From Giardia intestinalis (taxonomy: Eukaryota), in assembly GCA_000002435.2 (NCBI GenBank), contig CM018792.1: a stretch of 64,000 nt of DNA. One strand, 5' to 3'. The position numbers and the translations under genes are program-made. Under the pieces are notes generated by a model. The model saw nothing but the letters and a program-made list of their open reading frames with translations, searched no databases and had not been told where the DNA came from. Shown here piece by piece: positions 5,114 to 64,000 of the stretch. Every line of letters starts with the position of its first letter. Position 1 is the stretch's first letter.

Positions 5114-7324
5114 ATGTTTGGCAGTTTTGTTCTCGCGGGGGTACTCGTCCAGATTGCATGGGCAGAAAAAGTAACAGAGCGCGCGGCTCAATGCGCAGAT
5201 AACACTAATTGCGCAGCAGAAGCATGCAACGTTCTGATCGGTGGTAAATTGTATTGCTCTCAATGTAACACAGGATTTGTTCCTATCAATGGACAATGTG
5301 CAGGCAAAGAAGATGCAAAAACCAAGTGTAAAGATACCGATGGAGGCGATACAGCTGATCAGACCTGTGGACAGTGCGCTGAGCAGACTTTCATGTACAA
5401 GGGCGGCTGTTACGAAGCAGCCCAGCAGCCCGGACAGACCATATGTCAGGCGGCAGAAAATGGAAAATGCACACAGGCTAAGGCTGGATACTTCGTGCCG
5501 CCGGGCGCAGACGCCTCTCACCAATCGGTCATACCGTGCGGAGACGAAGAGGAAATAACGGTTAAGAACGATAAAAAGTACAAGGGCGTAGTGCATTGTA
5601 CTCAGTGTAACGCTCCCGCAGAAGCAGCAGATGCTAACGCCAAGGCCGCCACATGTACTGCGTGCGGCGATAGCAAGATCGTCAAGACGGCCAAGGACCA
5701 AGCCACCTCCTGCGTGACAGAAAAAGAGTGCACGGATGCCCCAGGCTTCTTCGTTGATACGACGAGCGGTAAAAAATGCAGCAAGTGCGCTGAGACATGC
5801 AAGACCTGTAAGACCGAGGCTGCGAAGTGCACCTCCTGTAAGGACGACAAGCCGTACCTGAAGAAGGATGACGAGTCCACAACTGGCACGTGCGTTGACG
5901 CAAACGGCTGCCCGGCAACTCATTACGTTGATAAGGAAGCAAAGGAGTGCAACACCTGCGTTTCAGGAGGGACGGTGGACTGCACCACTTGTGAGAAAGG
6001 CGCCAACGGAGTGGTTTGTAAGACGTGTACGACTGGTACGAAGACCAAGTTTGGCCTTGGAAAGAAGTCATGCGTTGAGAACTGCCCCTCGAACTCCAGC
6101 GATGAAAAGACCCCTGGCACCTGTGAGTGCGTCGAGGGCTACGTTCCCGACGACGCGGGCACCGGGTGTACGAAGAAATCCGACCCCCAGTGCAACACCC
6201 CCGGCTGCAAGACGTGCAGTGATCCGAAGAAAGACAAGGAGGTGTGCACAGAATGCGAAGACCCCAAGGCCCTCACGCCCACGGGCCAGTGCATCGATAA
6301 CTGCGGAGATCTGGGAGGCTACTACGAGGGCACCAACGAGGGGGGCAAGAAGGCCTGCAAGAAGTGCGAGGTCGAGAACTGCCTCCTGTGCAATGGGCAG
6401 GGACAGTGCGAGACCTGCAAGGACGGGTACTACAAGAGCGGAGCCGCCTGTGCCAAGTGCGATACCTCGTGCAAGACGTGCGCGAACGGGAAGCCCAACG
6501 GGTGTACGAGCTGCGAGCCTAAGCAGGTCCTCAGCTACGAAGGGGAGGGCACGGGGACGTACAAACCAGAATGCAAGCCAGTGAGCGGCGGCAAGGATGG
6601 AACGTGCAAGAGCTGCGACCTGAGCATAGACGGGACAAGCTACTGTTCTGCCTGTAACGTGGGCACGGAGTATCCAGAGAACGGTGTGTGCGTCAAGAAG
6701 TCGGCCCGCACAGCCTCCTGCCAGGTCGAACCGAGCAATGGTGTGTGCGGGACATGTGCAAAGGGCTTCTTCCGCATGAACGGGGGCTGCTACGAAACGA
6801 CCAAACTCCCTGGAAAGAACGTCTGTGAGGAGGCAGCACCGACCGGCGATACCTGTCAGACTCCGGCCGACGGGTACAAACTGAATAACGGCGCGCTCAT
6901 CACTTGCTCGGCCGGATGTAAGACGTGCACCAGCCAGGACCAGTGCGACACGTGTAAGGCTGGATATGCTAAGACTGGCGGTAACACTAAGAAGTGCGTT
7001 CCCTGCGCCACTGGGTGCTCCGAGTGCAATGCGGACGACGCCACCAAGTGCACGGTGTGCGCTGCAGGGTACTACCTGTCCAAAGAAAAGTGCATAGCAT
7101 GCGACAAGAGCGACGGCGGATCCATCACCGGCGTCGCCAACTGCGCCAACTGCGCTCCCCCAACCAACAATAAAGGGCCTGTCCTCTGCTACCTCATACA
7201 GAACACCAACAGGAGCGGGCTTTCCACGGGGGCCATAGCGGGGATCTCCGTCGCTGTCATCGCTGTCGTGGGGGGCCTCGTGGGCTTCCTCTGCTGGTGG
7301 TTCATATGTAGAGGGAAGGCGTGA
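5114..7324 (+). CDS. Variant-specific surface protein (VSP), head gene of the tandem array (737 aa; signal peptide, CXXC-rich ectodomain, TM, CRGKA tail)
   Basis: The track ORF begins at 4688, but the VSP-type signal peptide MFGSFVLAGVLVQIAWA begins at ATG 5114 (in frame). There are many CXXC and GGCY motifs. C-terminus is NRSGLSTGAIAGISVAVIAVVGGLVGFLCWWFICRGKA followed by stop. Confidence 0.9.
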   Translation: MFGSFVLAGVLVQIAWAEKVTERAAQCADNTNCAAEACNVLIGGKLYCSQCNTGFVPINGQCAGKEDAKTKCKDTDGGDTADQTCGQCAEQTFMYKGGCYEAAQQPGQTICQAAENGKCTQAKAGYFVPPGADASHQSVIPCGDEEEITVKNDKKYKGVVHCTQCNAPAEAADANAKAATCTACGDSKIVKTAKDQATSCVTEKECTDAPGFFVDTTSGKKCSKCAETCKTCKTEAAKCTSCKDDKPYLKKDDESTTGTCVDANGCPATHYVDKEAKECNTCVSGGTVDCTTCEKGANGVVCKTCTTGTKTKFGLGKKSCVENCPSNSSDEKTPGTCECVEGYVPDDAGTGCTKKSDPQCNTPGCKTCSDPKKDKEVCTECEDPKALTPTGQCIDNCGDLGGYYEGTNEGGKKACKKCEVENCLLCNGQGQCETCKDGYYKSGAACAKCDTSCKTCANGKPNGCTSCEPKQVLSYEGEGTGTYKPECKPVSGGKDGTCKSCDLSIDGTSYCSACNVGTEYPENGVCVKKSARTASCQVEPSNGVCGTCAKGFFRMNGGCYETTKLPGKNVCEEAAPTGDTCQTPADGYKLNNGALITCSAGCKTCTSQDQCDTCKAGYAKTGGNTKKCVPCATGCSECNADDATKCTVCAAGYYLSKEKCIACDKSDGGSITGVANCANCAPPTNNKGPVLCYLIQNTNRSGLSTGAIAGISVAVIAVVGGLVGFLCWWFICRGKA

Positions 7325-7338
7325 CTTAGGTAGTGAAT
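7325..7338 (+). promoter_or_regulatory. Conserved VSP 3' motif/polyadenylation signal (CTTAGGTAGTGAAT; AGTGAAT = AGTRAAY at 7332..7338)
   Basis: Immediately 3' of the TGA; fits the Giardia AGTRAAY polyA signal and the extended VSP 3' motif ACTYAGRTAGTRAAY (recalled from literature). Repeated at 9158-9171, 10991-11004, 12890-12903, 14699-14712, 63830-63843, and as AGTAAAT at 16544-16550. Confidence 0.75.
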
Positions 7339-9157
7339 GCTGTACAGTGATAGTGATAGTGATAGTGCTATGTGGTGTGGGGGTGATAGTGGTGGTGTGG
7401 GACTTTTCTTCATGGGCGGGTGCTACAAGACAGAGAGTCAGCCCGGCAGTGACATATGCACAGCAGCCAGTAATGGAGTATGCACTACTTGTAAGGCAGA
7501 TAACGGCCTGTTCAAGAACCCAGTTACACCTCAGAAGCCTGGTAGCGAGTGCATCCTGTGCTCTGATACTAAGGGAGCAGATGGATATACGGGGGTGGCC
7601 AACTGCCTCAAGTGCACAGAACCAACTAATAGTCCAGGAGCTGCCACGTGCACTGAGTGTCAAGAGGGGTACTATAAAGAGAATAACGAATGCAATCAGT
7701 GTGATCAGTCCTGTCTGACTTGCAGTGGAAGTGGTCCGAATCATTGCACATCCTGTAAGGAGGGGAAGTATCTGAAAAGCGATAATACCTGTTCACCTAC
7801 ATGTGAAGGAAACACTTATGCTGACCCTGTGACAAGGACATGCAAGGAGTCTGGTATAGCAGATTGCACCGCGTGTGAGTACAACACGACTGTCAGCAAG
7901 CCCCAGTGCACCGCCTGTAACAATAAGAAGGTGAAGACAGAGCTGGATGGGACAACCACTTGCGTCGATGATGCTGGGTGCGCAACAGATAACGTCGACG
8001 GATCCCACTTTCTGAGTGATGATAGCACCAAGTGCATATTATGCAGTGATACAACAACAGGAACAGAAGCAAACGACAAGGGGATTGCTAATTGTAAAAC
8101 GTGTAAGAAGAACGGAGCCAAGCCGACCTGCTCAGCTTGCCTCGACGGATACTTTGGTTCTGATACATGCACAGCTTGCGGTGCCAACTGTGCTACATGC
8201 TCTGCTGCTGGCAATGATCAGTGCACTAAATGCAAGCCTGGATTCTTCATGAAACAACCCGGCTCTACTGGTGAGTGTGTTGCTTGCGACAGTAAAGCCG
8301 ACAATGGCATCGAGGGATGCAGTGCATGCACAAACGATGGCGGTGCTTTCAAGTGCACCGATTGCAAGCCCAACTATCGCAAGGAGGGCAGTACTGGCTC
8401 TGTCACATGCACCAAGACCTGTGAAGATGATACTACCTGTGGTGGTACCTCTGGCGCCTGTGATGCCATGATAATAGATGATCAGGGCACCACAAAGCAC
8501 TATTGCTCATACTGTGGGGATAGTTCACAAGCTCCTATCGATGGTCTCTGTGCTACTGATAAGAATGGGAATACTTGTACCAATAATGTCTGTACATCAT
8601 GTACTCAAGGGTACTTCTTGTACATGGACGGCTGTTATAGTACTCAGAGTCAACCTGGTAACCTCATGTGCAAGACAGCTAACAACGGGGTCTGTACAGC
8701 CGTTAATGAGAATAATAAGTACTTCATAGTACCAGAAGCAAAGCCTACTCAGCAGTCTGTACTAGCATGTGGTAACCCATTAGGCACACTAGTAGATACT
8801 AAGGCATATGTGGGGGTGGATGGCTGCTCCCAGTGTACAGCCCCAACAGCTCCATCTGAGGGTGGCATGACCCCCGCTGTGTGTACCTCCTGTGACAGTG
8901 GTAAGAAGCCCAACAGGGATGGCACTGGGTGTGTGACATGCTCTGACACCAACTGCAAGAGCTGTGCGATGGACGGTGTGTGTGGGGAGTGCAACAGTGG
9001 CTTCAGTCTAGACAATGGCAAGTGCGTGTCCACTGGCGCCAACAGGAGCGGGCTCTCCACGGGGGCCATCGCGGGCATCTCCGTCGCCGTGGTCGTCGTC
9101 GTGGGGGGCCTCGTGGGCTTCCTCTGCTGGTGGTTCGTGTGCAGGGGGAAGGCGTGA
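7337..9157 (+). CDS. VSP-family ORF, 5'-truncated cassette (606 aa; no signal peptide; likely pseudogene or silent cassette). Its ATG lies inside the preceding gene's polyA signal
   Basis: Same frame as the head gene. Begins MLYSDSDSDSAMWCGGDSGGVGLFFMGGCYKTESQPG (translation of the microsatellite, then a GGCY module). Ends ...GLSTGAIAGISVAVVVVVGGLVGFLCWWFVCRGKA. Confidence 0.75.
   Translation: MLYSDSDSDSAMWCGGDSGGVGLFFMGGCYKTESQPGSDICTAASNGVCTTCKADNGLFKNPVTPQKPGSECILCSDTKGADGYTGVANCLKCTEPTNSPGAATCTECQEGYYKENNECNQCDQSCLTCSGSGPNHCTSCKEGKYLKSDNTCSPTCEGNTYADPVTRTCKESGIADCTACEYNTTVSKPQCTACNNKKVKTELDGTTTCVDDAGCATDNVDGSHFLSDDSTKCILCSDTTTGTEANDKGIANCKTCKKNGAKPTCSACLDGYFGSDTCTACGANCATCSAAGNDQCTKCKPGFFMKQPGSTGECVACDSKADNGIEGCSACTNDGGAFKCTDCKPNYRKEGSTGSVTCTKTCEDDTTCGGTSGACDAMIIDDQGTTKHYCSYCGDSSQAPIDGLCATDKNGNTCTNNVCTSCTQGYFLYMDGCYSTQSQPGNLMCKTANNGVCTAVNENNKYFIVPEAKPTQQSVLACGNPLGTLVDTKAYVGVDGCSQCTAPTAPSEGGMTPAVCTSCDSGKKPNRDGTGCVTCSDTNCKSCAMDGVCGECNSGFSLDNGKCVSTGANRSGLSTGAIAGISVAVVVVVGGLVGFLCWWFVCRGKA
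7347..7367 (+). repeat. (GTGATAG)3 perfect heptamer microsatellite in the VSP inter-unit junction
   Basis: cagtGATAGTGATAGTGATAGtgc. Identical copy at 12912..12932. Degenerate GGTGATA/GGTGATAG heptamers at 9182-9228, 11015-11058, 14723-14769, 63863-63898. Confidence 0.85.
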
Positions 9158-9220
9158 CTTGGGTAGTGAATGCTGTACAGTGGGTGATAATGGGTGATAG
9201 AAGGTGATAGAGGGTGATAG

Positions 9221-10990
9221 TGGAGTGAGATATGCACACAGGCTAGTGATGGACTGTGCACTGCTTGTAAGGCAGCTAACCAGTACATATTCCAGAACAG
9301 GGCAGAGAGGGTGACCCCTGGTGGGGAGTGCATCCTCTGTCATGATGCCACGGGAGCGAATGAGAACAAAGGAGTGGCTAACTGCCTCAAGTGCACGGCA
9401 CCAGCTAATAGTCCAGGGGCTGCCACGTGTACTGAGTGCATGTCTGGCTTCTCAGGAGACTCGTGTGCTACTCAATGCGGAGGAGACTGTGCCGCCTGTG
9501 ATAAGAGTAACCAAAATCAGTGCACCTCTTGTAAGACTGGGAAGTACCTGAAAGAGAATCAATGTGTGGAAAAAAGTGCATGTAACAACAATCACTACCC
9601 CGATGACACTAGCATGACCTGCGTCGCCTGTAGCACCATACAAGATTGCACAGCATGCACAATGGACCAGTCCACGGGGAAGCCAAAGTGCACTAACTGC
9701 GGTGCCAGTAAGATCCCCAGGACGACTCTCGACGGAACCTCGACCTGCGTGACAAAAGGGTATGATCAGTGTCAAGGCACAGATAAGGAGCTGTTCATGA
9801 AGGAGGACCAATCGGCGTGCTTATTATGCGGAGACAATACTGAGGATACATCTGAGTCCAATAAAAACCAGGGAACTCCTAATTGCAAGACCTGTACCAA
9901 GACAGCATCCACTAAACCGGTCTGTGAGACGTGCAAGGATGGCTTCTTCTTTAATACTGGTGATAAGACATGTACAAACAAGTGCGATGCCACCTGCAAG
10001 ACGTGCTCTGCTGCTACAGATGCTAACCGATGCTTAACTTGTATGCCCGGATACTTCCCCATCGATAGTACAGATCAACAAGGGAAGAAGTGCGTCCCAT
10101 GCGATAGTGTGGACGACAAGGGTCGCGAAGGGTGCAGTGTCTGCTCTAACAATGGTGGATTCAAGTGTACTGAATGTAAGGTGAACTATAAGAAGCAGTC
10201 CAATGGAGATGCAGGGGATGACTATACATGTGTGAAGACTTGTGAAGACCCCACGGCTTGTGGTGGGACCTCTGGCGCCTGCGATGCTATAGTAATCGAC
10301 AATGATGGAGTAGAGCATCATTACTGTTCTTATTGTGGAAATCAAGGAGATGTACCAATCAATGGTATATGCACCAGCTCACTTGCAAGTAATACCTGCG
10401 CCGATGGTGTCTGCAAGTCTTGTGCTCAAGGGTACTTTATGTATATGGGAGGGTGCTATGATGTGTCGAAGGCTCCTGGTAGTCACATGTGCAAGAAAGC
10501 AGATAACAATGGGATATGCACAGAGGCGGCAAGTAATAGGTACTTCGTAGTCCCTGGGGCACAGACCACTGATCAGTCTGTATTAGCCTGTGGCAACCCC
10601 CTAGGCACACTAGTAGGCACTCAAGGTACCGCTAAGGCATACGTGGGGGTGGATGGCTGCTCACAGTGCACAGCCCCAGCAGGTCTGTCTGAGGGTGGCA
10701 TGACCCCCGCTGTCTGTACCTCCTGTGACAATAGTAAGAAGCCCAACAAGGATGGCAGCGGGTGTGTGCTGTGCTCTGACACCAACTGCAAGAGCTGTGT
10801 GATGGACGGTGTGTGTGGGGAGTGCAACAGTGGCTTCAGTCTAGACAATGGTAAGTGTGTGTCCTCTGGCGCCAACAGGAGCGGGCTCAGCACGGGCGCC
10901 ATCGCGGGGATCTCCGTGGCTGTCATCGCTGTCGTGGGGGGCCTCGTGGGCTTCCTCTGCTGGTGGTTCGTGTGCAGGGGGAAGGCGTGA
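9221..10990 (+). CDS. VSP-family 5'-truncated cassette (VSP-like frame opens at 9221 after the last in-frame junction stop; track ORF 9311..10990, 559 aa; no ATG or signal peptide at the 5' end)
   Basis: ICTQASDGLCTACKAANQYIFQN...TPGGECILCHDATGANENKG..., ends ...ISVAVIAVVGGLVGFLCWWFVCRGKA. Near-identical to 14762..16531. Confidence 0.75.
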   Translation, partial: WSEICTQASDGLCTACKAANQYIFQNRAERVTPGGECILCHDATGANENKGVANCLKCTAPANSPGAATCTECMSGFSGDSCATQCGGDCAACDKSNQNQCTSCKTGKYLKENQCVEKSACNNNHYPDDTSMTCVACSTIQDCTACTMDQSTGKPKCTNCGASKIPRTTLDGTSTCVTKGYDQCQGTDKELFMKEDQSACLLCGDNTEDTSESNKNQGTPNCKTCTKTASTKPVCETCKDGFFFNTGDKTCTNKCDATCKTCSAATDANRCLTCMPGYFPIDSTDQQGKKCVPCDSVDDKGREGCSVCSNNGGFKCTECKVNYKKQSNGDAGDDYTCVKTCEDPTACGGTSGACDAIVIDNDGVEHHYCSYCGNQGDVPINGICTSSLASNTCADGVCKSCAQGYFMYMGGCYDVSKAPGSHMCKKADNNGICTEAASNRYFVVPGAQTTDQSVLACGNPLGTLVGTQGTAKAYVGVDGCSQCTAPAGLSEGGMTPAVCTSCDNSKKPNKDGSGCVLCSDTNCKSCVMDGVCGECNSGFSLDNGKCVSSGANRSGLSTGAIAGISVAVIAVVGGLVGFLCWWFVCRGKA

Positions 10991-11059
10991 CTTGGGTAGT
11001 GAATGCTGTACAGTGGGTGATAATGGGTGATAGAAGGTGATAGAGGGTGATAATGGAGT

Positions 11060-12889
11060 GTGATATGTACAGCAGCCAGTGATGGAGTGTGCACTGCTTG
11101 TAACACAGCTAACCAGTACATATTCCAGAACAAGGCTACGACAGTGACCCCTGGTGGGGAGTGCATCCTCTGTCATGATGCCACGGGAGCGAATGAGAAC
11201 AAAGGAGTGGCTAACTGCCTCAAGTGCACGGAACCAAGTGGTAGTCCAGGAGCTGCCACGTGTACAGAGTGTCAAGCAGGGTACTATAAAGATGGTAACG
11301 GTGCATGTGTCAAATGTAATGAAGCTTGTCTGACTTGCAGCGGTGAGGGCGCAACTAAGTGCACCCTCTGTGCGGGCGAGAAGTATCTCGATGGGAATAA
11401 TTGTGTAGATGCTAGCAGTTGTAATGGAGATAAGTACCCCAACCCAAGCACTGGGAAGTGCACAGCTTGTAACGCTGGAGCAGATCAGGGGGGCATACCA
11501 GAGTGCACTGCTTGCACGTACAATGCAAAGCTACAGAAGCCGGTGTGCAGTGCCTGTAACGGTAAGAAGGTGAAGACAGAGCTGGATGGGACAACAACCT
11601 GTGTCGATGATGCTGGGTGCAAAAAAGACAGCACACACTTTGTTGACGATGATAATACTATGTGTGTTCTGTGCAGCGATACCAGCGGAAACGAGCCAAA
11701 TAAGAACAAGGGACTCAAAGGCTGTAAGGCATGTACTAAGCAGTCCAGTAGTCCCCCCACGTGTACCGGATGCTTACCCGGATATTACGATTCCGGCTCG
11801 TTTGTTTGTGAGCTCTGCACAGGGAACTGTGCCACCTGCGAAGGTGCTAATGCTAACCAGTGCCAAACCTGCAAGCCGGGATACTTCCTGAAAGGAGGCC
11901 AAGCACCTGCGGAGTGTGTCGCCTGTGATAGCACCGCCGATAACGGAGTCCCCGGCTGCGCAACATGCACCTTTGATACCATACTAACATGCGACTCCTG
12001 CAAGCCCGACTACAAGCTAACAGGGACTGGGTGTCAAAAGGTCTGTGAGGACACAACGGGGTGTGGTGGTACCTCTGGCGCTTGTGATGCCACAGTGATC
12101 GATGCTAATGGAAAGGAGCTTCACTACTGTTCCTATTGTGGAGAGAGTGGTAAGTATCCTATCGATGGGAAGTGTGTTGATAACGCTCAAAGTAATCAAT
12201 GCGCTGATGGTGTATGTACACAGTGTGCTCAAGGGTACTTTATGTACATGGGCGGGTGCTATAGCACTACCAATGCTCCTGGTAAGTCCATGTGCAAGAC
12301 AGCTGAAGGTGGCAAGTGCACAGCTGCTAATGAGAATAATAGGTACTTCGTAGTACCAGGGGCATCCAACACTGATCAGTCTGTACTAGCATGTGGTAAC
12401 CCATTAGGCACACTAGTAGGCACTAGTAATACTGCTAAGGCATACGTGGGGGTCGAGGGCTGCTCACAGTGTACGGCCCCAGCAGCTCTGTCTGATGGTG
12501 GTATGACTGCTGCTATATGCACTTCTTGTGACAATAGTAAGAAGCCCAACAAGGATGGCAGTGGGTGCTTCACATGTACCATCGATGGATGCTCGCACTG
12601 CAATAGAGACAACATGTGCGAGGCATGTAGTGATGGTAAGAAGGTGAGCCCTGGGAGGAAGTCATGCGTGGATGGCTGCCCCAGCAACTCCACTGATGAT
12701 AACTCTGTCTGTGTGTGCAACGATGGGTACAGCCCTGATGATGCTGGGGCCTCCTGTGTGTCCTCTGGCGCCAACAGGAGCGGGCTTTCCACGGGGGCCA
12801 TAGCGGGGATCTCCGTCGCTGTCATCGCTGTCGTGGGGGGCCTCGTGGGCTTCCTCTGCTGGTGGTTCATATGTAGAGGGAAGGCGTGA
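11060..12889 (+). CDS. VSP-family 5'-truncated cassette (609 aa; GTG alt-start in track, no ATG or signal peptide)
   Basis: VICTAASDGVCTACNTANQYIFQNKATTVTPGGECILCHDATG..., ends ...ISVAVIAVVGGLVGFLCWWFICRGKA. Same frame as the others. Confidence 0.75.
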   Translation: MICTAASDGVCTACNTANQYIFQNKATTVTPGGECILCHDATGANENKGVANCLKCTEPSGSPGAATCTECQAGYYKDGNGACVKCNEACLTCSGEGATKCTLCAGEKYLDGNNCVDASSCNGDKYPNPSTGKCTACNAGADQGGIPECTACTYNAKLQKPVCSACNGKKVKTELDGTTTCVDDAGCKKDSTHFVDDDNTMCVLCSDTSGNEPNKNKGLKGCKACTKQSSSPPTCTGCLPGYYDSGSFVCELCTGNCATCEGANANQCQTCKPGYFLKGGQAPAECVACDSTADNGVPGCATCTFDTILTCDSCKPDYKLTGTGCQKVCEDTTGCGGTSGACDATVIDANGKELHYCSYCGESGKYPIDGKCVDNAQSNQCADGVCTQCAQGYFMYMGGCYSTTNAPGKSMCKTAEGGKCTAANENNRYFVVPGASNTDQSVLACGNPLGTLVGTSNTAKAYVGVEGCSQCTAPAALSDGGMTAAICTSCDNSKKPNKDGSGCFTCTIDGCSHCNRDNMCEACSDGKKVSPGRKSCVDGCPSNSTDDNSVCVCNDGYSPDDAGASCVSSGANRSGLSTGAIAGISVAVIAVVGGLVGFLCWWFICRGKA

Positions 12890-12901
12890 CTTAGGTAGTG
12901 A

Positions 12902-14698
12902 ATGCTGTACAGTGATAGTGATAGTGATAGTGCTATGTGGTGTGGGGGTGATAGTGGTGGTGTGGGACTTTTCTTCATGGGCGGGTGCTACAAGACAGAG
13001 AGTCAGCCCGGCAGTGACATATGCACAGCAGCCAGTAATGGAGTATGCACTACTTGTAAGGCAGATAACGGCCTGTTCAAGAACCCAGTTACACCTCAGA
13101 AGCCTGGTAGTGAGTGCATCCTGTGCTCTGATACGACAGATAGAAACGGGGTCATGGGAGTCGCTGGATGCTCAGAATGCTCCCACACGGGCACTAGCGG
13201 ACCGGCCACGTGTACAGAGTGTCAAGCAGGGTTCGTTACGAAGGACAGTGCATGTGTGAAGTGCGGAGACGGCTGCTCTGCTTGCTCAGCTGATACTCCG
13301 ACTCAGTGTACCGCCTGCGTTGAGGGGAAGTACTTGAAGGGTGGTAACACTTGTGTAGATGCTGGTGGATGTGACAATGGTAACTATGCGGACAAGAAGA
13401 CCTGGACCTGTAAGGCCTGCAGTGAGATACAAGGATGCACCGCGTGTGCATACGACGACGCCACGGGAAAGCCGAAGTGCACCGACTGCGGTAGTAAGAC
13501 GGTCAGAGACGAGCTGGATGGGACAACGACCTGTGTTGATGAGGCCGAGTGCAAAGTGGGCAAGACGCACTTCTACGACGCCTCGAAGTGCGTGCAGTGC
13601 GGCGACAATGGTAAGGGCGGAGTCCAGAACTGCAAGCTGTGCACCGCAAAAGGCACCTGCGAGGCTTGTGTCGACGGGTATAAAGTCAACGGAAACGCCT
13701 GCGAGGCCTGCACAGGAAACTGCGCAGAGTGCGGAACAGCGGGTCAAATCAACACATGTACAAGATGCATGCCGGGGTACTTCCTTAAGGATGGCCCGCC
13801 TAAGACATGCGTTCTCTGTGATGACGAGACAAGTGGGATTCCAGGCTGTGCCGAGTGCACAGGCGGCGTGGGGTCCCTCAAATGCACTGAATGTAAGCCC
13901 AACTACAGACCCAGCGGAGAACCTAGCGACCTCACATGTACAAAGACCTGCGAGGATGAGACGGCGTGTGGGGGTACCTCTGGCGCTTGTGATGCCACAG
14001 TGATCGATGCTAATGGAAAGGAGCTTCATTACTGTTCATACTGTGGAGAGAGTGGTAAGTATCCTATCGATGGGAAGTGTGTTGATAATGCTCAAAGTAA
14101 TACTTGTAACAACCATGTATGTACATCATGTGCTCAAGGGTACTTCTTGTATATGGGAGGTTGTTACAAGGTTGATACAGTACCTGGCAACTATATGTGC
14201 AAGGCATCAAGTAAGGAGGGGATATGCACAGAGGCAGCCAACAATAGGTACTTCGTAGTCCCTGGGGCACAGACCACTGATCAGTCTGTACTAGCATGTG
14301 GTAACCCATTAGGCACACTAGTAGGCACTCAAGGTACCGCTAAGGCATACGTGGGGGTGGATGGCTGCTCACAGTGCACAGCCCCAGCAGGTCTGTCTGA
14401 GGGTGGCATGACCCCCGCTGTCTGTACCTCCTGTGACAATAGTAAGAAGCCCAACAAGGATGGCAGCGGGTGTGTGCTGTGCTCTGACACCAACTGCAAG
14501 AGCTGTGTGATGGACGGTGTGTGTGGGGAGTGCAACAGTGGCTTCAGTCTAGACAATGGTAAGTGTGTGTCCTCTGGCGCCAACAGGAGCGGGCTCAGCA
14601 CGGGCGCCATCGCGGGCATCTCCGTCGCCGTGGTCGTCGTCGTGGGGGGCCTCGTGGGCTTCCTCTGCTGGTGGTTCGTGTGCAGGGGGAAGGCGTGA
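12902..14698 (+). CDS. VSP-family 5'-truncated cassette (598 aa), a mosaic: 5' region equals unit 7337-9157, middle equals unit 11060-12889, 3' region equals units 9221-10990 and 14762-16531
   Basis: Its first about 80 aa and its junction are identical to unit 2. The block CEDETACGGTSGACDATVIDANGKELHYCSYCGESGKYPIDGKCVDNAQSN is shared with unit 4. The C-terminal about 130 aa are shared with units 3 and 6. CRGKA tail. Confidence 0.75.
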   Translation: MLYSDSDSDSAMWCGGDSGGVGLFFMGGCYKTESQPGSDICTAASNGVCTTCKADNGLFKNPVTPQKPGSECILCSDTTDRNGVMGVAGCSECSHTGTSGPATCTECQAGFVTKDSACVKCGDGCSACSADTPTQCTACVEGKYLKGGNTCVDAGGCDNGNYADKKTWTCKACSEIQGCTACAYDDATGKPKCTDCGSKTVRDELDGTTTCVDEAECKVGKTHFYDASKCVQCGDNGKGGVQNCKLCTAKGTCEACVDGYKVNGNACEACTGNCAECGTAGQINTCTRCMPGYFLKDGPPKTCVLCDDETSGIPGCAECTGGVGSLKCTECKPNYRPSGEPSDLTCTKTCEDETACGGTSGACDATVIDANGKELHYCSYCGESGKYPIDGKCVDNAQSNTCNNHVCTSCAQGYFLYMGGCYKVDTVPGNYMCKASSKEGICTEAANNRYFVVPGAQTTDQSVLACGNPLGTLVGTQGTAKAYVGVDGCSQCTAPAGLSEGGMTPAVCTSCDNSKKPNKDGSGCVLCSDTNCKSCVMDGVCGECNSGFSLDNGKCVSSGANRSGLSTGAIAGISVAVVVVVGGLVGFLCWWFVCRGKA

Positions 14699-14761
14699 CT
14701 TGGGTAGTGAATGCTGTACAGTGGGTGATAATGGGTGATAGAAGGTGATAGAGGGTGATAG

Positions 14762-16531
14762 TGGAGTGAGATATGCACACAGGCTAGTGATGGACTGTGC
14801 ACTGCTTGTAAGGCAGCTAACCAGTACATATTCCAGAACAAGGCTACGACAGTGACCCCTGGTGGGGAGTGCATACTGTGCCATGATGCCACGGGAGCGA
14901 ATGAGAACAAGGGAGTGGCTAATTGCCTCAAGTGCACGGCACCAGCTAATAGTCCAGGGGCTGCCACGTGTACTGAGTGCATGTCTGGCTTCTCAGGAGA
15001 CTCGTGTGCTACTCAATGCGGAGGAGACTGTGCCGCCTGTGATAAGAGTAACCAAAATCAGTGCACCTCTTGTAAGACTGGGAAGTACCTGAAAGAGAAT
15101 CAATGTGTGGAAAAAAGTGCATGTAACAACAATCACTACCCCGATGACACTAGCATGACCTGCGTCGCCTGTAGCACCATACAAGATTGCACAGCATGCA
15201 CAATGGACCAGTCCACGGGGAAGCCAAAGTGCACTAACTGCGGTGCCAGTAAGATCCCCAGGACGACTCTCGACGGAACCTCGACCTGCGTGACAAAAGG
15301 GTATGATCAGTGTCAAGGCACAGATAAGGAGCTGTTCATGAAGGAGGACCAATCGGCGTGCTTATTATGCGGAGACAATACTGAGGATACATCTGAGTCC
15401 AATAAAAACCAGGGAACTCCTAATTGCAAGACCTGTACCAAGACAGCATCCACTAAACCGGTCTGTGAGACGTGCAAGGATGGCTTCTTCTTTAATACTG
15501 GTGATAAGACATGTACAAACAAGTGCGATGCCACCTGCAAGACGTGCTCTGCTGCTACAGATGCTAACCGATGCTTAACTTGTATGCCCGGATACTTCCC
15601 CATCGATAGTACAGATCAACAAGGGAAGAAGTGCGTCCCATGCGATAGTGTGGACGACAAGGGTCGCGAAGGGTGCAGTGTCTGCTCTAACAATGGTGGA
15701 TTCAAGTGTACTGAATGTAAGGTGAACTATAAGAAGCAGTCCAATGGAGATGCAGGGGATGACTATACATGTGTGAAGACTTGTGAAGACCCCACGGCTT
15801 GTGGTGGGACCTCTGGCGCCTGCGATGCTATAGTAATCGACAATGATGGAGTAGAGCATCATTACTGTTCTTATTGTGGAAATCAAGGAGATGTACCAAT
15901 CAATGGTATATGCACCAGCTCACTTGCAAGTAATACCTGCGCCGATGGTGTCTGCAAGTCTTGTGCTCAAGGGTACTTTATGTATATGGGAGGGTGCTAT
16001 GATGTGTCGAAGGCTCCTGGTAGTCACATGTGCAAGAAAGCAGATAACAATGGGATATGCACAGAGGCGGCAAGTAATAGGTACTTCGTAGTCCCTGGGG
16101 CACAGACCACTGATCAGTCTGTATTAGCCTGTGGCAACCCCCTAGGCACACTAGTAGGCACTCAAGGTACCGCTAAGGCATACGTGGGGGTGGATGGCTG
16201 CTCACAGTGCACAGCCCCAGCAGGTCTGTCTGAGGGTGGCATGACCCCCGCTGTCTGTACCTCCTGTGACAATAGTAAGAAGCCCAACAAGGATGGCAGC
16301 GGGTGTGTGCTGTGCTCTGACACCAACTGCAAGAGCTGTGTGATGGACGGTGTGTGTGGGGAGTGCAACAGTGGCTTCAGTCTAGACAATGGTAAGTGTG
16401 TGTCCTCTGGCGCCAACAGGAGCGGGCTCAGCACGGGCGCCATCGCGGGGATCTCCGTGGCTGTCATCGCTGTCGTGGGGGGCCTCGTGGGCTTCCTCTG
16501 CTGGTGGTTCGTGTGTAGAGGGAAGGCGTAG
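14762..16531 (+). CDS. VSP-family 5'-truncated cassette, near-identical duplicate of 9221..10990 (track ORF 14852..16531 encodes the identical 559-aa product); terminal unit of the array
   Basis: ORF-track proteins for 9311..10990 and 14852..16531 are identical. Ends CRGKA + TAG, then AGTAAAT polyA signal (16544..16550). No further junction follows. Confidence 0.75.
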   Translation, partial: WSEICTQASDGLCTACKAANQYIFQNKATTVTPGGECILCHDATGANENKGVANCLKCTAPANSPGAATCTECMSGFSGDSCATQCGGDCAACDKSNQNQCTSCKTGKYLKENQCVEKSACNNNHYPDDTSMTCVACSTIQDCTACTMDQSTGKPKCTNCGASKIPRTTLDGTSTCVTKGYDQCQGTDKELFMKEDQSACLLCGDNTEDTSESNKNQGTPNCKTCTKTASTKPVCETCKDGFFFNTGDKTCTNKCDATCKTCSAATDANRCLTCMPGYFPIDSTDQQGKKCVPCDSVDDKGREGCSVCSNNGGFKCTECKVNYKKQSNGDAGDDYTCVKTCEDPTACGGTSGACDAIVIDNDGVEHHYCSYCGNQGDVPINGICTSSLASNTCADGVCKSCAQGYFMYMGGCYDVSKAPGSHMCKKADNNGICTEAASNRYFVVPGAQTTDQSVLACGNPLGTLVGTQGTAKAYVGVDGCSQCTAPAGLSEGGMTPAVCTSCDNSKKPNKDGSGCVLCSDTNCKSCVMDGVCGECNSGFSLDNGKCVSSGANRSGLSTGAIAGISVAVIAVVGGLVGFLCWWFVCRGKA

Positions 16532-16718
16532 ATGTACTTAGGTAGTAAATGCGTCGACCGTGTTCAAGCTGTCAGGTGTTGTGGCATATACTTGTGAAGC
16601 TCGTCTGGTACTGGGATTTATAGACTTCCATCTAATTACCACGAACAGATAAATTTCTAAAAAACTCGCCGCTTGGGACTTCGAGGCTTTTATTAGTTAG
16701 CTTAGGCATTTCTAGGCA

Positions 16719-59775: not shown

Positions 59776-60077
59776 CTGTTGATTGCATCCGACGATGGAC
59801 TAGAATCTCCCTCAGCTGTGCAGCAAACAGACACCTCAATGAAGTGGTGGCTGTCAGTGGATCACGCAGCTGCCCGTTTCCGCAGAGGCCAGGGAGAGCA
59901 GGCCTCCTTGCCCCTGGCCAGCACTGGAACGCCGGTGGGTGAAACGGTCGCACGGGTGGCCTTCTCGCTCCTGATGCAGTAGTCCTCCGCAAGCATTGGT
60001 CACTACAGATCTGTAGACATAAACCTCTGTGGAAACAGATCGTTTCCAAAACGGTAGATTACCAAAATAATACCAGG

Positions 60078-61374
60078 ATGGACACTGCCTTGTCTGGGTC
60101 TGCAACAACAGCTGTCAGTGTCCCACCGTTCACCCCTAGGGAGGTTCATGAGCGGTTAGGTGATGTGCTTAATGAAAACACCATGGGGACAGTCTACTCT
60201 CTCAAAGCTATCTGGGCCTCGCTGTAAAGGTCATTCAGCTTGGAGACCTGGACAAGGATGACGTGGAAATCATCAGACTAGAGCTGACCACCCTCCCCGA
60301 CCTCTCCAACCCAGGGGTTCTCAGGCACCACCAGGTGCTTACGGACGAGGGCTTCACCTACATCGTCATAGACCGCCACGACAAGACCCTCGAGCGCCTC
60401 CTTATAGAGCACAAACGAAGGAAGACTCTCATCCCTATCGCTGTGATCCTCTCCGCCATGAAGCAGGTCGCTGCCGCCCTCGCCTACCTCCACGGCCTCA
60501 GCGAGGTAAGTGCTAACAGGCTTGTCCACCGCGACCTCAGGCCTACCAGCATCCTTATCAGCGCAGACGGAGAGCGCTTCGTCATTGCTGATTTCGGCCT
60601 CTGTAAGGACGCCCTGTGGAGTGGGAGCACTCTCATGGGAATAATGGCGTACATGGCCCCCGAGGTGCTCCTCCGTAATGAGACCAGCCCTGCTTCCGAC
60701 GTGTGGAGCCTCGGGGTCATCCTCTACGAGATGGCCACTCTAAGGAAACCGGACTTCCTAGAAGGTAAAGACCCAGCAGAGGTCTTCGTGACGGGTGGAG
60801 GCCGGACCTGAGCGGTGTCACTGATGGCTTCATAAAGAGTGTTCTGGAGAGGATACTCGTGCTGGAGCCAGAGAGGAGGCCGATGGTCAGGGAGCTGCAC
60901 GAGACGCTCGCTACATTCGACATCCCAGTTAGTGAGCTGGGGCATCGGTGTGTGGCGCTAGAGGACAAGTGCAGCGCCTTGGAGACTGCGATGAGTAATA
61001 TTAATGACAGGATTGCTATTCTTGAGGCGGCCCTCGAGAGCAAGCCGACCAGGGACCGCGCCGAGCTCTGGATGCATCGATGGAGAGGAGCTCTTAGTAT
61101 GTTATCCACAACCAGCCATCGTCTCCGGACGGTCGAGAAGTGGGCGCAGCTTACCCATGAGACCTCTGAGCGCACCTGCAGGCGGGCCCAGCGATACAGC
61201 GACAGCAATGTACAGGAGTGCGCCCCGAACAATCACTCCACAAAGGTGCGTTCTGAGTCTGGCCCTCACCGATCCTGTTCCTATCGAAGCCAGGGGGAAC
61301 TGCGCTATCAGCCGACCTCTGGTGGGTGTGCTCCTATCTTGTCCTTCTCCAGTACAACTGATCAAGGAGAGTAA
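60078..61374 (+). pseudogene. Frameshifted NEK-like protein kinase, a paralogue of 50929..51855, with two -1 frame changes (near 60197-60227 and near 60793-60808)
   Basis: Segment 1 (frame 0, ATG 60078): ...VHERLGDVLNENTMGTVYSLKA then stop. Segment 2 (track ORF 60263..60811): ...LAVKVIQ...HRDLRPTSILI..DFGLCKD..APEVL..WSLGVILYE...AEVFVTGG then stop. Segment 3 (track ORF 60859..61374): GWRPDL...LVLEPERRPMVREL plus coiled coil. The joined sequence is collinear with the GC-rich kinase. Shift sites fall in a (CT)3 run and a GGG run. Confidence 0.5.
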
Positions 61375-61447
61375 GAGCGGCTGTCTCTCACTGCTCGCGG
61401 CAACACACCAGCCTGACGGAAGAGCAGTGGCACGTGTACTCCGGCTA

Positions 61448-63829
61448 ATGTTGGTAGGATTTCTCCTAGTTTGTGCAACCGTGCTGGCAAAGGACACCGG
61501 GAAGACCGCATGCGAGCTTTCCAACACAGAATGCGCCCAAAACCTGAAGGACGCGGGCTGCAAGACGTGCGTCGGGACGGAGCCTGACCAGACGTGCACT
61601 GAGTGTACAGATCCCTCCCACAATGTACAGATTGACAAGAAGAGTTGCGACGCCAACTGCCCGGAGCACGCCGCGGCCAACTCGAAAGTGTGCGGGTGCG
61701 TCGCTGGGTACCAGCCGACTCCCGGGCAGAACCAGTGCGAGCTTTCCAACACAGAATGCGCCCAAAACCTGAAGGACGCGGGCTGCAAGACGTGCGTCGG
61801 GACGGAGCCTGACCAGACGTGCACTGAGTGTACAGATCCCTCCCACAATGTACAGATTGACAAGAAGAGTTGCGACGCCAACTGCCCGGAGCACGCCGCG
61901 GCCAACTCGAAAGTGTGCGGGTGCGTCGCTGGGTACCAGCCGACTCCCGGGCAGAACCAGTGCGAGCTTTCCAACACAGAATGCGCCCAAAACCTGAAGG
62001 ACGCGGGCTGCAAGACGTGCGTCGGGACGGAGCCTGACCAGACGTGCACTGAGTGTACAGATCCCTCCCACAATGTACAGATTGACAAGAAGAGTTGCGA
62101 CGCCAACTGCCCGGAGCACGCCGCGGCCAACTCGAAAGTGTGCGGGTGCGTCGCTGGGTACCAGCCGACTCCCGGGCAGAACCAGTGCGAGCTTTCCAAC
62201 ACAGAATGCGCCCAAAACCTGAAGGACGCGGGCTGCAAGACGTGCGTCGGGACGGAGCCTGACCAGACGTGCACTGAGTGTACAGATCCCTCCCACAATG
62301 TACAGATTGACAAGAAGAGTTGCGACGCCAACTGCCCGGAGCACGCCGCGGCCAACTCGAAAGTGTGCGGGTGCGTCGCTGGGTACCAGCCGACTCCCGG
62401 GCAGAACCAGTGCGAGCTTTCCAACACAGAATGCGCCCAAAACCTGAAGGACGCGGGCTGCAAGACGTGCGTCGGGACGGAGCCTGACCAGACGTGCACT
62501 GAGTGTACAGATCCCTCCCACAATGTACAGATTGACAAGAAGAGTTGCGACGCCAACTGCCCGGAGCACGCCGCGGCCAACTCGAAAGTGTGCGGGTGCG
62601 TCGCTGGGTACCAGCCGACTCCCGGGCAGAACCAGTGCGAGCTTTCCAACACAGAATGCGCCCAAAACCTGAAGGACGCGGGCTGCAAGACGTGCGTCGG
62701 GACGGAGCCTGACCAGACGTGCACTGAGTGTACAGATCCCTCCCACAATGTACAGATTGACAAGAAGAGTTGCGACGCCAACTGCCCGGAGCACGCCGCG
62801 GCCAACTCGAAAGTGTGCGGGTGCGTCGCTGGGTACCAGCCGACTCCCGGGCAGAACCAGTGCGAGAAGGCCCCTAACACGCAGTGCAATACTCCCAACT
62901 GCAAGACCTGTGACAACCCCAAAACAGACAACGAAATCTGCACCGAATGTAATGATGGCAACTACCTCACCCCGACAAAGCAGTGCACGCAGAGCTGCGG
63001 AACAATAGGAAGCTACTATGATGGAGACAAAGCGTGCGAGCCTTGTGATCCTAGCTGTGCTGGGTGCACCACAAAGGGGCCAGCGAAGTGCACGCTGTGT
63101 CCTCCCGGGAAGAGGCTCCAGTACACCAATGATGATCCTAATCAAGGTGGATCTTGTGTAGATGAGTGCAAAGCAGAGATGGACGGGTGTGCAGAGTGTG
63201 GAGCGATAATCGGCGGTACGAAGTACTGTTCAAAATGCAAGGAAGATAAGTGGGCACCTCAGAATGGCGTGTGCGCTAATTCAGTAACAAGGAATTCATT
63301 CTGCACGAACGCAGCAGGTGGTGTATGCACTCAGTGTGCTGCAGATCATTTCCTTCAAGATGGCGGTTGCTACAAACTCGGCAGACAGCCTGGTGTCCAG
63401 ATATGTGCAGCGGCGGGTCCCAATAGCCTGTGTACTACGTGCGTAAATGGACAGAGACCAGATACCAATACTGGAGCCTGTCCTGTGTGTCCAACAGGCT
63501 GTGACACATGTACAGGGACATCCTCGCGGGCGCCCGAATGCCAATCTTGCCTTCTGGGATACTATTTCGATTCTGATAAAAAACTGTGTGTGAAATGTAC
63601 CGAGAATAGTAGTGCTATTCAAGGTGTTAGCAGCTGTGTGAGCTGCGCTCCTCCATCTAACAATCAAGGATCTGTCGTCTGCTACCTCATAAATGATAGC
63701 GGTAGCACAAACAAGAGTAGCGGGCTCTCCACGGGGGCCATAGCGGGGATCTCCGTTGCTGTGGTCGTTGTTGTGGGGGGTCTCGTAGGGTTCCTTTGCT
63801 GGTGGTTCCTCTGCCGGGGCAAGGCGTGA
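61448..63829 (+). CDS. Variant-specific surface protein (VSP, 793 aa) containing six perfect 75-aa tandem repeats
   Basis: Signal peptide MLVGFLLVCATVLA at ATG 61448 (the track ORF from 61004 is an upstream in-frame extension). CXXC-rich. C-terminus NKSSGLSTGAIAGISVAVVVVVGGLVGFLCWWFLCRGKA + TGA + CTTAGGTAGTGAAT. Confidence 0.9.
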   Translation: MLVGFLLVCATVLAKDTGKTACELSNTECAQNLKDAGCKTCVGTEPDQTCTECTDPSHNVQIDKKSCDANCPEHAAANSKVCGCVAGYQPTPGQNQCELSNTECAQNLKDAGCKTCVGTEPDQTCTECTDPSHNVQIDKKSCDANCPEHAAANSKVCGCVAGYQPTPGQNQCELSNTECAQNLKDAGCKTCVGTEPDQTCTECTDPSHNVQIDKKSCDANCPEHAAANSKVCGCVAGYQPTPGQNQCELSNTECAQNLKDAGCKTCVGTEPDQTCTECTDPSHNVQIDKKSCDANCPEHAAANSKVCGCVAGYQPTPGQNQCELSNTECAQNLKDAGCKTCVGTEPDQTCTECTDPSHNVQIDKKSCDANCPEHAAANSKVCGCVAGYQPTPGQNQCELSNTECAQNLKDAGCKTCVGTEPDQTCTECTDPSHNVQIDKKSCDANCPEHAAANSKVCGCVAGYQPTPGQNQCEKAPNTQCNTPNCKTCDNPKTDNEICTECNDGNYLTPTKQCTQSCGTIGSYYDGDKACEPCDPSCAGCTTKGPAKCTLCPPGKRLQYTNDDPNQGGSCVDECKAEMDGCAECGAIIGGTKYCSKCKEDKWAPQNGVCANSVTRNSFCTNAAGGVCTQCAADHFLQDGGCYKLGRQPGVQICAAAGPNSLCTTCVNGQRPDTNTGACPVCPTGCDTCTGTSSRAPECQSCLLGYYFDSDKKLCVKCTENSSAIQGVSSCVSCAPPSNNQGSVVCYLINDSGSTNKSSGLSTGAIAGISVAVVVVVGGLVGFLCWWFLCRGKA
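61511..62860 (+). repeat. Six perfect head-to-tail copies of a 225-bp (75-aa) coding repeat inside the VSP
   Basis: Unit CELSNTECAQNLKDAGCKTCVGTEPDQTCTECTDPSHNVQIDKKSCDANCPEHAAANSKVCGCVAGYQPTPGQNQ begins at 61511, 61736, 61961, 62186, 62411, 62636. The copies show no visible nucleotide divergence (minus-strand ORF translations are also perfectly periodic). Confidence 0.9.
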
Positions 63830-64000
63830 CTTAGGTAGTGAATGCTGTACAATGTGTGATAGAAGGTGATAGTGGGTGATAGTGTGATAATGGAGTGTGA
63901 TATGTACAGCAGCCAGTGATGGAGTGTGCACTGCTTGTAACACAGCTAACCAGTACATATTCCAGAACAAGGCTACGACAGTGACCCCTGGTGGGGAGTG
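63830..64000 (+). other. VSP junction module (3' motif + heptamer repeats) followed by the start of another 5'-truncated VSP cassette running off the right edge
   Basis: The sequence after 63829 is near-identical to junction 10991-11170 (..GGTGATAG.. repeats, then SVICTAASDGVCTACNTANQYIFQNKATTVTPGGEC). Confidence 0.7.

What the first reader, a model, noticed from the sequence alone, without database searches (positions are those of the whole stretch)
63830..64000. Same junction and cassette module begins again after the second VSP, suggesting a dispersed, reusable array architecture
The 170 bp after the 61448-63829 VSP stop are near-identical to 10991-11170: the VSP 3' motif, GGTGATAG-type heptamers, then a signal-peptide-less cassette starting ...CTAASDGVCTACNTANQYIFQNKATTVTPGGEC. 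Two arrays about 44 kb apart in the same orientation share junction and cassette sequences, so inter-array ectopic recombination is plausible.
Basis: seen in the sequence. Interest (0 to 1): 0.5.

Follow-up and report, generated by a model that had tools for sequence, protein, structure and literature searches.

The report
Giardia pseudo-VSP array junction, already catalogued

Summary
The window is Giardia intestinalis WB chromosome 4 (2020 assembly). 63830-64000 matches 10991-11163 at 162/173 positions, and the last 113 nt are identical.

The stretch has three parts:
- the VSP extended polyadenylation signal (63829-63845);
- four copies of a GTGATA-core repeat with an 8-10 nt period, not heptamers (63855-63890);
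- from 63891, an in-frame VSP body with no ATG, initiator or signal peptide.

This body is the first 110 nt of GL50803_0050182, an annotated 1,770-nt pseudo-VSP. Its head matches array-1 unit 4 and its body matches unit 6.

Adam et al. 2010 already listed this pair (vsp95/vsp96) as a "linear array" and proposed the recombination-cassette idea. Xu et al. 2020 annotated 208 such pseudo-VSPs.

My analyses add support for exchange:
- array units are mosaics (permutation p<=0.0005);
- all are stop-free, with dN/dS about 0.3 and 96% of Cys columns conserved;
- unit 5 shares an 80-residue, 98-100% identical tract with an intact chromosome-3 VSP.

How many cassettes follow GL50803_0050182 could not be determined.

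Verdict: real, correctly read, already known.

The parts
61446..61452 (+). Initiator element TAATGTT around the ATG (61448) of the intact VSP
   Evidence: Sequence ...ggctaATGTTGG. The published table lists 'taatgtt' for GL50803_0050181 and for vsp95.
61448..63829 (+). Intact VSP gene GL50803_0050181 (KAE8303970.1 / XP_037901999.1, 793 aa; vsp95 of Adam 2010). It is the first member of the second linear array.
   Evidence: Exact protein match. Pfam PF03302 VSP, E=6e-81. N-terminus MLVGFLLVCATVLA and C-terminus CRGKA. Supplement rows.
61511..62866 (+). Six perfect tandem copies of a 225-bp (75-aa) repeat inside the VSP
   Evidence: TRF reports period 225, 6.0 copies, 100% matches. Listed as LA_TR225 in Adam 2010.
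63712..63829 (+). Conserved 3' terminal region (transmembrane helix plus CRGKA). This is where DNA homology to the array-1 units begins.
   Evidence: blastn HSPs start at 63712. Per-25-nt identity rises to 20-25/25 only in the last ~120 nt. Adam 2010 describe a conserved 117-nt 3' terminus.
63829..63845 (+).
   Evidence: 7 matches in the window against 0 expected, one after each unit's stop codon. The extended PAS ACUUAGRUAGURAAYRY is reported as associated with VSPs and pVSPs in 323 of 327 genome hits.
63855..63890 (+). Four imperfect copies of a GTGATA-core microsatellite (10, 10, 8 and 8 nt), ending in an in-frame TAA at 63888-63890
   Evidence: Sequence. GGTGATA at 63865 and 63875, and at exact 10-nt spacing in the array-1 junctions. 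TRF period 10 at 9179-9228, 11014-11056 and 14720-14769.
63891..64000 (+). First 110 nt of pseudo-VSP GL50803_0050182 (1,770 nt in all, running ~1.66 kb past the window end). It has no ATG, no Inr and no signal peptide. Head = unit 4 type; body = unit 6 type.
   Evidence: Identical to the published first 110 nt. The published row reads 'pVSP, 1770, N, N, WSVICTAASDG...'. Mismatch map against U3, U4 and U6. Translation.
5114..7324 (+). Intact VSP GL50803_00137606 (KAE8303950.1, 736 aa; vsp92), the first member of array 1
   Evidence: Exact protein match. CAATGTT at the ATG. Table row.
7325..16531 (+). Five head-to-tail pseudo-VSP units: U2 7325-9157, U3 9158-10990, U4 10991-12889, U5 12890-14698, U6 14699-16531. 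U6 contains GL50803_0050180 at 14762-16531.
   Evidence: Open frames and CRGKA ends. Junction alignment. No KAE protein accession falls between 8303950 and 8303951. Lengths match vsp93/94 and vsp103-105. Mosaic analysis.

Best explanation
The 171 bp is the junction between an intact, expressible VSP gene and the first (possibly only) silent pseudo-VSP of a Giardia 'vsp linear array'.

The junction has four parts: a stop codon; the VSP extended polyadenylation signal; a short GTGATA-core microsatellite; and a VSP body that starts about 100 codons into a full-length clade-I VSP. The body therefore lacks a promoter/initiator, a start codon and a signal peptide.

Inferred origin. One ancestral junction was propagated by tandem duplication. 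The two junction types differ by a single 55-nt deletion plus changes in repeat number. The module can become attached behind unrelated VSP genes by ectopic recombination in the ~117-nt conserved 3' end.

Inferred function. The cassettes are not expressed themselves. They exchange segments with each other and with intact VSP genes by gene conversion, so they act as a slowly used reservoir that diversifies the VSP repertoire over evolutionary time. They do not drive switching, which in Giardia is epigenetic or post-transcriptional.

Shown here: the anatomy, the identity with the annotated pVSP, mosaic tracts, and protein-level constraint. Inferred: silence, the direction of exchange, and its biological use.
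For: Identity of the locus:
- Exact matches to WB proteins KAE8303950/951/965/967/968/970.
- The cassette equals GL50803_0050182, a 1,770-nt pVSP with no start codon.
- The pair is catalogued as vsp95 (first in a linear array, TR225, TAATGTT) plus vsp96 (linear-array member, 3' end missing, 470 aa).

Architecture:
- The spacer here is 61 nt.
- Inr elements occur only at 5114 and 61448. The ATG of U2 and U5 lies inside the preceding polyadenylation signal.
- The cassettes align to intact clade-I VSPs only from about residue 85-105 onward.

Exchange:
- GL50803_0050182 has 0 mismatches to U4 over nt 1-113 and 0 mismatches to U6 over nt 52-399.
- U2/U5 are 100% identical for 200 columns and then 50-70%. 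U5 equals U3/U6 at 100% for 300 columns. U4/U5 are 97% in one 100-column block.
- The longest concordant runs beat all 2,000 permutations for every pair.
- U3 and U6 differ at 15 sites, 11 of them within 83 nt.
- Intact chromosome-3 VSP P0148 is 98-100% identical to U5 over residues 121-200 and 75-90% identical to U4 alone over residues 601-680.

Constraint:
- All five units have 589-611 codons without a stop. dN/dS is ~0.3 at dS ~1. 96% of Cys columns are conserved, against 43% of other columns.

Related species:
- In G. muris, pseudo-VSP arrays are essentially untranscribed and show recombination or gene conversion with VSPs.
Against: - No expression data were examined for this locus, so silence is inferred from missing signals and from G. 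muris.
- Within the window the two intact VSPs share only their last ~120 nt with the cassettes. No cassette-to-expressed-gene transfer is therefore seen at these two loci.
- The P0148 tract is protein-level only, and its direction is unknown.
- Low dN/dS could equally reflect recent pseudogenisation of sequences that diverged while they were functional.
- The number of cassettes after GL50803_0050182 is unknown. IDs 0050183-87 are absent from the Cys-rich tables.
Confidence: 0.75

Rival explanations
1. Pure relic. The cassettes are discarded by-products of unequal crossing-over that merely homogenise among themselves and never contribute sequence to functional VSP genes.
For: They have no start codon, Inr or signal peptide. 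[quoted passage not shown] Within this window the intact VSPs share only the conserved 3' end with the cassettes.
Against: Five units that are ~33% divergent at the DNA level all remain stop-free over ~600 codons, with dN/dS ~0.3 and 96% of Cys columns conserved. An intact chromosome-3 VSP shares an 80-residue, 98-100% identical tract with U5.
Confidence: 0.2
2. The downstream units are real genes, expressed by read-through from the upstream VSP or from internal ATGs, as the 2007 annotation assumed when it called 7337-9157 a 606-aa VSP.
For: The frames are long, open and constrained. XP_001706653.1 was annotated as a VSP in 2007.
Against: The 606-aa ORF starts at the ATG inside the preceding gene's polyadenylation signal and encodes MLYSDSDSDS..., not a signal peptide. 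Every unit is preceded by a stop codon and a complete extended PAS. The 2020 annotation and the 2022 reclassification both call these units pVSP.
Confidence: 0.04
3. Assembly artefact: repeat-rich reads were mis-joined, so the cassette does not really follow the second VSP.
For: VSP arrays broke the 2007 assembly, and Logan short-read contigs stop near 51.8 kb.
Against: Two independent assemblies place a linear-array member directly after this 225-bp-repeat VSP: the 2007 Sanger assembly (vsp95/vsp96) and the 2020 PacBio assembly (GL50803_0050181/0050182). The junction sequence also differs from every array-1 junction in its first 60 nt.
Confidence: 0.01

Closest known systems
Giardia intestinalis vsp 'linear arrays' / pseudo-VSP arrays (Adam et al. 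2010, PMC2996952; Xu et al. 2020, PMC7000408; Rodriguez-Walker et al. 2022, bioRxiv 10.1101/2022.03.07.483299)
   Same: Everything tested matches. The organism, assembly and locus are the same. The units are head-to-tail with a ~60-bp spacer. The first member has an Inr and a signal peptide. The downstream member has no start, Inr or signal peptide. An extended PAS follows each unit. The specific pair is listed as vsp95/vsp96 and as GL50803_0050181/0050182.
   Different: Nothing substantive. Details not found in the sections and supplements of these papers that I searched (not full readings): the 10-nt-periodic GTGATA microsatellite in the spacer, the 55-nt deletion relating the two junction types, and the U4-head/U6-body chimera of GL50803_0050182.
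Giardia muris telomere-adjacent pseudo-VSP arrays (Xu et al. 2020, PMC7641422)
   Same: Arrays of pseudo-VSPs without signal peptides, generated by duplication. They are untranscribed and show phylogenetic evidence of recombination or gene conversion with intact VSPs.
   Different: The G. muris arrays are long and almost all next to telomeres. The arrays here are chromosome-internal, short (5 and at least 1 cassettes), and sit directly behind an intact VSP.
Trypanosoma brucei silent VSG arrays with upstream 70-bp repeats and conserved 3' ends (my own knowledge, plus the comparison drawn in PMC7641422)
   Same: Promoter-less, often incomplete antigen genes in tandem arrays. A short repeat lies upstream and a conserved block lies at the 3' end of each unit. 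Mosaic genes arise by segmental conversion.
   Different: In T. brucei, conversion into a telomeric expression site is itself the switching mechanism. In Giardia, switching is reported to be epigenetic (abstract of PMC2996952), and no expression site or programmed conversion is known. The proteins are unrelated.

Membership tests
Giardia vsp linear array (Adam 2010) | Two or more adjacent vsp sequences, head to tail on one strand, separated by tens of bp (mean 60; from overlapping to 241 bp) | tested here: met
   There are 61 nt between the stop codon (63829) and the opening of the next VSP frame (63891). The array-1 spacers are 12 or 63 nt.
Giardia vsp linear array (Adam 2010) | The first member has its own upstream region, an Inr (PyAATGTT), an ATG and a signal peptide | tested here: met
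   TAATGTT at 61446-61452 and MLVGFLLVCATVLA. The published table lists 'taatgtt' and a signal peptide.
Giardia vsp linear array (Adam 2010) | Downstream members lack an Inr and a usable start or signal peptide | tested here: met
   The frame opens at TGG (63891) after a TAA stop, and the 36 window codons contain no Met. The annotation flags 'N, N' for ORF and start.
Giardia vsp linear array (Adam 2010) | The downstream member is a VSP body with CXXC motifs that ends in TM-CRGKA followed by the extended PAS | tested here: inconclusive
   Met for U2-U6. For GL50803_0050182 only the first 399 nt and ~400 aa could be read; these are CXXC-rich and U6-like. Its length equals U6, and a PAS is listed 5 nt after its end. 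The CRGKA end itself was not seen.
Pseudo-VSP array in the stricter sense (more than 3 pseudo-VSPs; definition used for G. muris in PMC7641422) | More than three consecutive pseudo-VSPs | not testable with these tools
   Array 1 has five. After the second VSP only GL50803_0050182 is documented. The WB chromosome could not be fetched.
Intact VSP gene (Xu 2020 / Rodriguez-Walker 2022 criteria) | Signal peptide, CXXC-rich ectodomain, TM and CRGKA | tested here: not met
   The cassette has no ATG or signal peptide. It is therefore a pseudo-VSP, not a VSP.
Archival-cassette gene-conversion systems (VSG, vls, msp2 type) | Silent donor cassettes bounded by conserved sequence on both sides | tested here: met
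   Each unit is flanked by the conserved 3' end plus PAS plus GTGATA repeats.
Archival-cassette gene-conversion systems (VSG, vls, msp2 type) | Segments of the donors are found in expressed genes (mosaics) | tested here: inconclusive
   Intact VSP P0148 shares 98-100% identical residues 121-200 with U5. This is protein-level only, and the direction and timing of transfer are unknown.
Archival-cassette gene-conversion systems (VSG, vls, msp2 type) | Conversion into an expression site accompanies antigenic switching | not testable with these tools
   No data here. The literature states that Giardia switching is epigenetic.

The most novel reading that the evidence does not exclude
The junction module (extended polyadenylation signal plus the 10-nt-periodic GTGATA microsatellite upstream, conserved TM-CRGKA block downstream) is a dedicated recombination boundary, functionally like the trypanosome 70-bp repeats. 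On this reading, pseudo-VSP cassettes are copied into intact VSP genes on the timescale of an infection. Giardia would then diversify its antigens by DNA recombination in addition to epigenetic switching.
Probability: 0.07. Interest if true: 0.75.

Novelty: already known. Interest (0 to 1): 0.13.

Why it matters
The finding matters little as a discovery. This exact gene pair, the array architecture and the 'cassettes for recombination' hypothesis are in the 2010 WB vsp catalogue, and the cassette is annotated as a pVSP in the current reference genome.

Its residual value is as a clean worked example.
- It shows that start-less units stay open and constrained.
- It shows chimeric units with mapped crossover intervals.
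- It shows a tract shared with an intact VSP on another chromosome.

These observations favour the 'reservoir' reading over the 'graveyard' reading of Giardia pseudo-VSP arrays. Both readings were left open in the sources I read (2010-2022).

The two same-orientation arrays also flank about 45 kb that includes predicted housekeeping-type genes (PI3K/PI4K-type kinase, kinesin, U3/Utp6, GWT1). That predicts copy-number variants of the interval, which could be looked for.

Tried and rejected
- Extending the sequence to the right failed. Exact-protein look-ups for the 793-aa VSP, the 941-aa upstream-ATG ORF, the ankyrin gene, GL50803_00102575 and P0001 found nothing.
- The U3/Utp6 gene was found only on Logan short-read contigs of at most ~34 kb, which end near 51.8 kb. 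The NCBI WB chromosome is evidently not in the position index.
- An exact scan of metagenome contigs with the 43-nt cassette head found nothing.
- A protein search with unit 4 returned only VSPs that are at most ~64% identical over most of the query (one short ENA protein reaches 80% over 37% of it). The cassettes themselves are absent because they are pseudogenes.
- Alternative GTG-start ORFs of the units are not in the collection.
- An ENA contig carrying hit P0155 turned out to hold a solitary VSP, not an array.
- The bacterial promoter/terminator scan is irrelevant for a eukaryote and showed nothing above background.
- I first guessed that the repeat-containing VSP was vspA6 (195-bp repeats). 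TRF shows 225-bp repeats, and the catalogue identifies it as vsp95.
- The supplement tables carry no coordinates, so they could not tell whether old-ID pVSPs follow GL50803_0050182.

Full report
**Source of the window.** Exact-sequence look-ups identify the window as Giardia intestinalis WB clone C6, on the 2.76-Mb contig of the 2020 chromosome-scale assembly.
- 5114-7324 is VSP KAE8303950.1.
- 16719-17813 is KAE8303951.1.
- 48412-49818 is the U3/Utp6 protein KAE8303965.1.
- 50929-51855 is NEK kinase KAE8303967.1.
- 52907-54418 is KAE8303968.1.
- 61448-63829 is VSP KAE8303970.1 (XP_037901999.1).

Published supplementary tables give the last gene the ID GL50803_0050181 on NC_051859.1, chromosome 4.

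**The observation.** The VSP at 61448-63829 ends ...CRGKA-TGA. The 171 nt that follow align to 10991-11163 with 162 matches in 173 columns. All differences lie in the first 60 nt, and the last 113 nt are identical. The larger block 63712-64000 hits 10873-11163 at 89.7% (E=1e-109). It also hits the equivalent junctions at 14581-14871 and 9040-9330.

One detail needs correcting. The repeats are not heptamers. A 7-nt core GGTGATA recurs with a 10-nt period (TRF period 10 in array 1; exact 10-nt spacing). In this junction there are four copies of 10, 10, 8 and 8 nt at 63855-63890.

**Anatomy of the junction.**
- ACTTAGGTAGTGAATGC (63829-63845) is the VSP extended polyadenylation signal. It occurs 7 times in the window against 0 expected, once after each VSP or pseudo-VSP stop codon. 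The literature reports this motif as almost exclusive to VSPs and pVSPs (323 of 327 genome hits).
- The microsatellite follows and ends in an in-frame TAA at 63888-63890.
- A frame opens at 63891 and reads WSVICTAASDGVCTACNTANQYIFQNKATTVTPGGE. It has no ATG.
- Initiator elements occur only at the two intact genes: CAATGTT at 5114 and TAATGTT at 61448.

**The first array.** The region 5114-16531 is one intact VSP followed by five head-to-tail units: U2 7325-9157, U3 9158-10990, U4 10991-12889, U5 12890-14698 and U6 14699-16531. Each unit ends in TM-CRGKA.

There are two junction types, and they differ by one 55-nt deletion plus changes in repeat number. This argues for a single ancestral junction that was copied, not created repeatedly.

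In U2 and U5 the apparent start ATG lies inside the preceding unit's polyadenylation signal (AGTGAATGC) and encodes MLYSDSDSDS..., which is not a signal peptide.

Aligned to intact clade-I VSPs such as P0148 (720 aa, N-terminus MFQLIPLFVASALMAAC), the cassettes have no counterpart to the first ~85-105 residues.

**What lies beyond the window.** I could not fetch the chromosome. The supplement of Rodriguez-Walker et al. 2022 does list GL50803_0050182 on the same chromosome as a pVSP of 1,770 nt with no start codon. Its first 110 nt equal window 63891-64000 exactly. U6 is GL50803_0050180 and is also 1,770 nt.

Over its readable 399 nt, GL50803_0050182 has no mismatch to U4 in nt 1-113 and no mismatch to U6 in nt 52-399. 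It is therefore a chimera, with a crossover interval at about 63943-64003. Further along, its protein departs from U6 and shares exact peptides with U4 and U5.

So the module is a full-length unit, not a stub. IDs 0050183-87 are absent from the Cys-rich tables, and another array (0050188 to at least 0050194) carries the same cassette head. How many units follow GL50803_0050182 remains unknown.

**Prior knowledge.** Adam et al. 2010 described 'vsp linear arrays' in this very isolate.
- More than half of all vsp genes lie in such arrays.
- The mean spacer is 60 bp.
- The first member has an Inr, and downstream members do not.

Their table already contains this locus.
- vsp92, vsp93 and vsp94 (852, 606 and 516 aa) match U1-U3 by length.
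- vsp103, vsp104 and vsp105 (409, 598 and 516 aa) match U4-U6 by length.
- vsp95 is a TR225, TAATGTT, first-in-array gene of 716 aa. That equals the 941-aa upstream-ATG ORF minus three repeats.
- vsp95 is followed by vsp96, an array member with its 3' end missing at 470 aa.

Xu et al. [quoted passage not shown] For G. muris the same group showed that pseudo-VSP arrays are untranscribed and exchange sequence with VSPs. The finding is therefore a correct rediscovery.

**Added evidence on mechanism.** The units are mosaics.
- U2 and U5 are 100% identical for the first 200 alignment columns, then 50-70%.
- U5 is 100% identical to U3 and U6 over columns 1601-1900.
- U4 and U5 are 97% identical in columns 1201-1300, against ~55-65% elsewhere.

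A Sawyer-type permutation of variable sites gives p<=0.0005 for every pair. U3 and U6 differ at only 15 of 1,833 sites, and 11 of those lie within 9300-9382. At six of them (9300-9310) U6 carries the U4/junction-B bases.

The start-less units are not decaying.
- Each has 589-611 codons and no stop.
- dN/dS is ~0.3 at dS ~1.
- 96% of Cys columns are conserved among U2, U3 and U4, against 43% of other columns.

The intact chromosome-3 VSP P0148 is 98-100% identical to U5 over residues 121-200 and resembles only U4 over residues 601-680. This indicates exchange between cassettes and intact genes.

DNA homology between the second VSP and the array units begins only ~120 nt before the stop codon. 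That fits attachment of an array behind an unrelated VSP by recombination in the conserved 3' end.

**Limits.** Silence of the cassettes is inferred, not measured. The direction and age of the transfers are unknown. The two intact VSPs in the window share nothing with the cassettes beyond the 3' end. The relic model therefore keeps some weight, read-through expression very little, and an assembly artefact almost none, because two independent assemblies agree.

Noticed in passing
window 61511-62866: Six perfectly identical 225-bp (75-aa) tandem repeats sit inside the second VSP (TRF 100% matches). The 2010 catalogue lists this gene with about 2 repeats and 716 aa. That length equals the 941-aa upstream-ATG ORF minus three repeats, so the 2007 assembly had collapsed the repeat.
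   Followed up: partly
window 7337 and 12902: The ATG that opens the 606- and 598-aa ORFs of units 2 and 5 lies inside the preceding unit's polyadenylation signal (AGTGAATGC). The 2007 annotation called 7337-9157 a VSP (XP_001706653.1). It begins MLYSDSDSDS and has no signal peptide, so the ORF start is an annotation artefact.
   Followed up: yes
window 61004-61447: The region upstream of the second VSP's ATG is open in frame. Its last 80 codons are 64% identical (61/95, E=9e-25) to the N-terminal extension of XP_001709308.1; the corrected version of that gene lies on the 4.02-Mb contig. The 5' flanks of VSP paralogues are therefore conserved.
   Followed up: partly
window 58870-61374: An ankyrin-repeat gene (58870-59775) and a protein-kinase domain split over two frames (60263-60811 and 60859-61374; probably a frameshifted NEK pseudogene) lie directly upstream of the second VSP. 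This is the usual ankyrin/NEK company of VSP loci.
   Followed up: partly
window 54419-58869: A stretch of about 4.4 kb, relatively GC-rich (0.52-0.58), contains only short overlapping ORFs on both strands and no recognised gene. This is consistent with the gene-poor regions reported around VSPs. Its origin was not examined.
   Followed up: no
window 50929-51969: There is a local GC spike (0.60) at NEK kinase gene KAE8303967.1, with a 285-aa antisense ORF spanning nearly the whole gene. Two near-identical NEK paralogues exist elsewhere on the same chromosome (KAE8304034, KAE8304058).
   Followed up: no
window 16532-16552: The last unit of array 1 ends differently from the internal units. It has TAG instead of TGA, 4 extra nt, and AGTAAA instead of AGTGAA in the PAS. 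Unique sequence starts right after ...AAATGC. The duplicated unit therefore runs from just after one PAS to the next PAS.
   Followed up: partly
window 16532-61447: The two same-orientation arrays bracket about 45 kb that includes predicted housekeeping-type genes (PI3K/PI4K-type kinase, kinesin, U3/Utp6, GWT1). Unequal recombination between the arrays would delete or duplicate this block, and copy-number variation in isolates was not checked.
   Followed up: no
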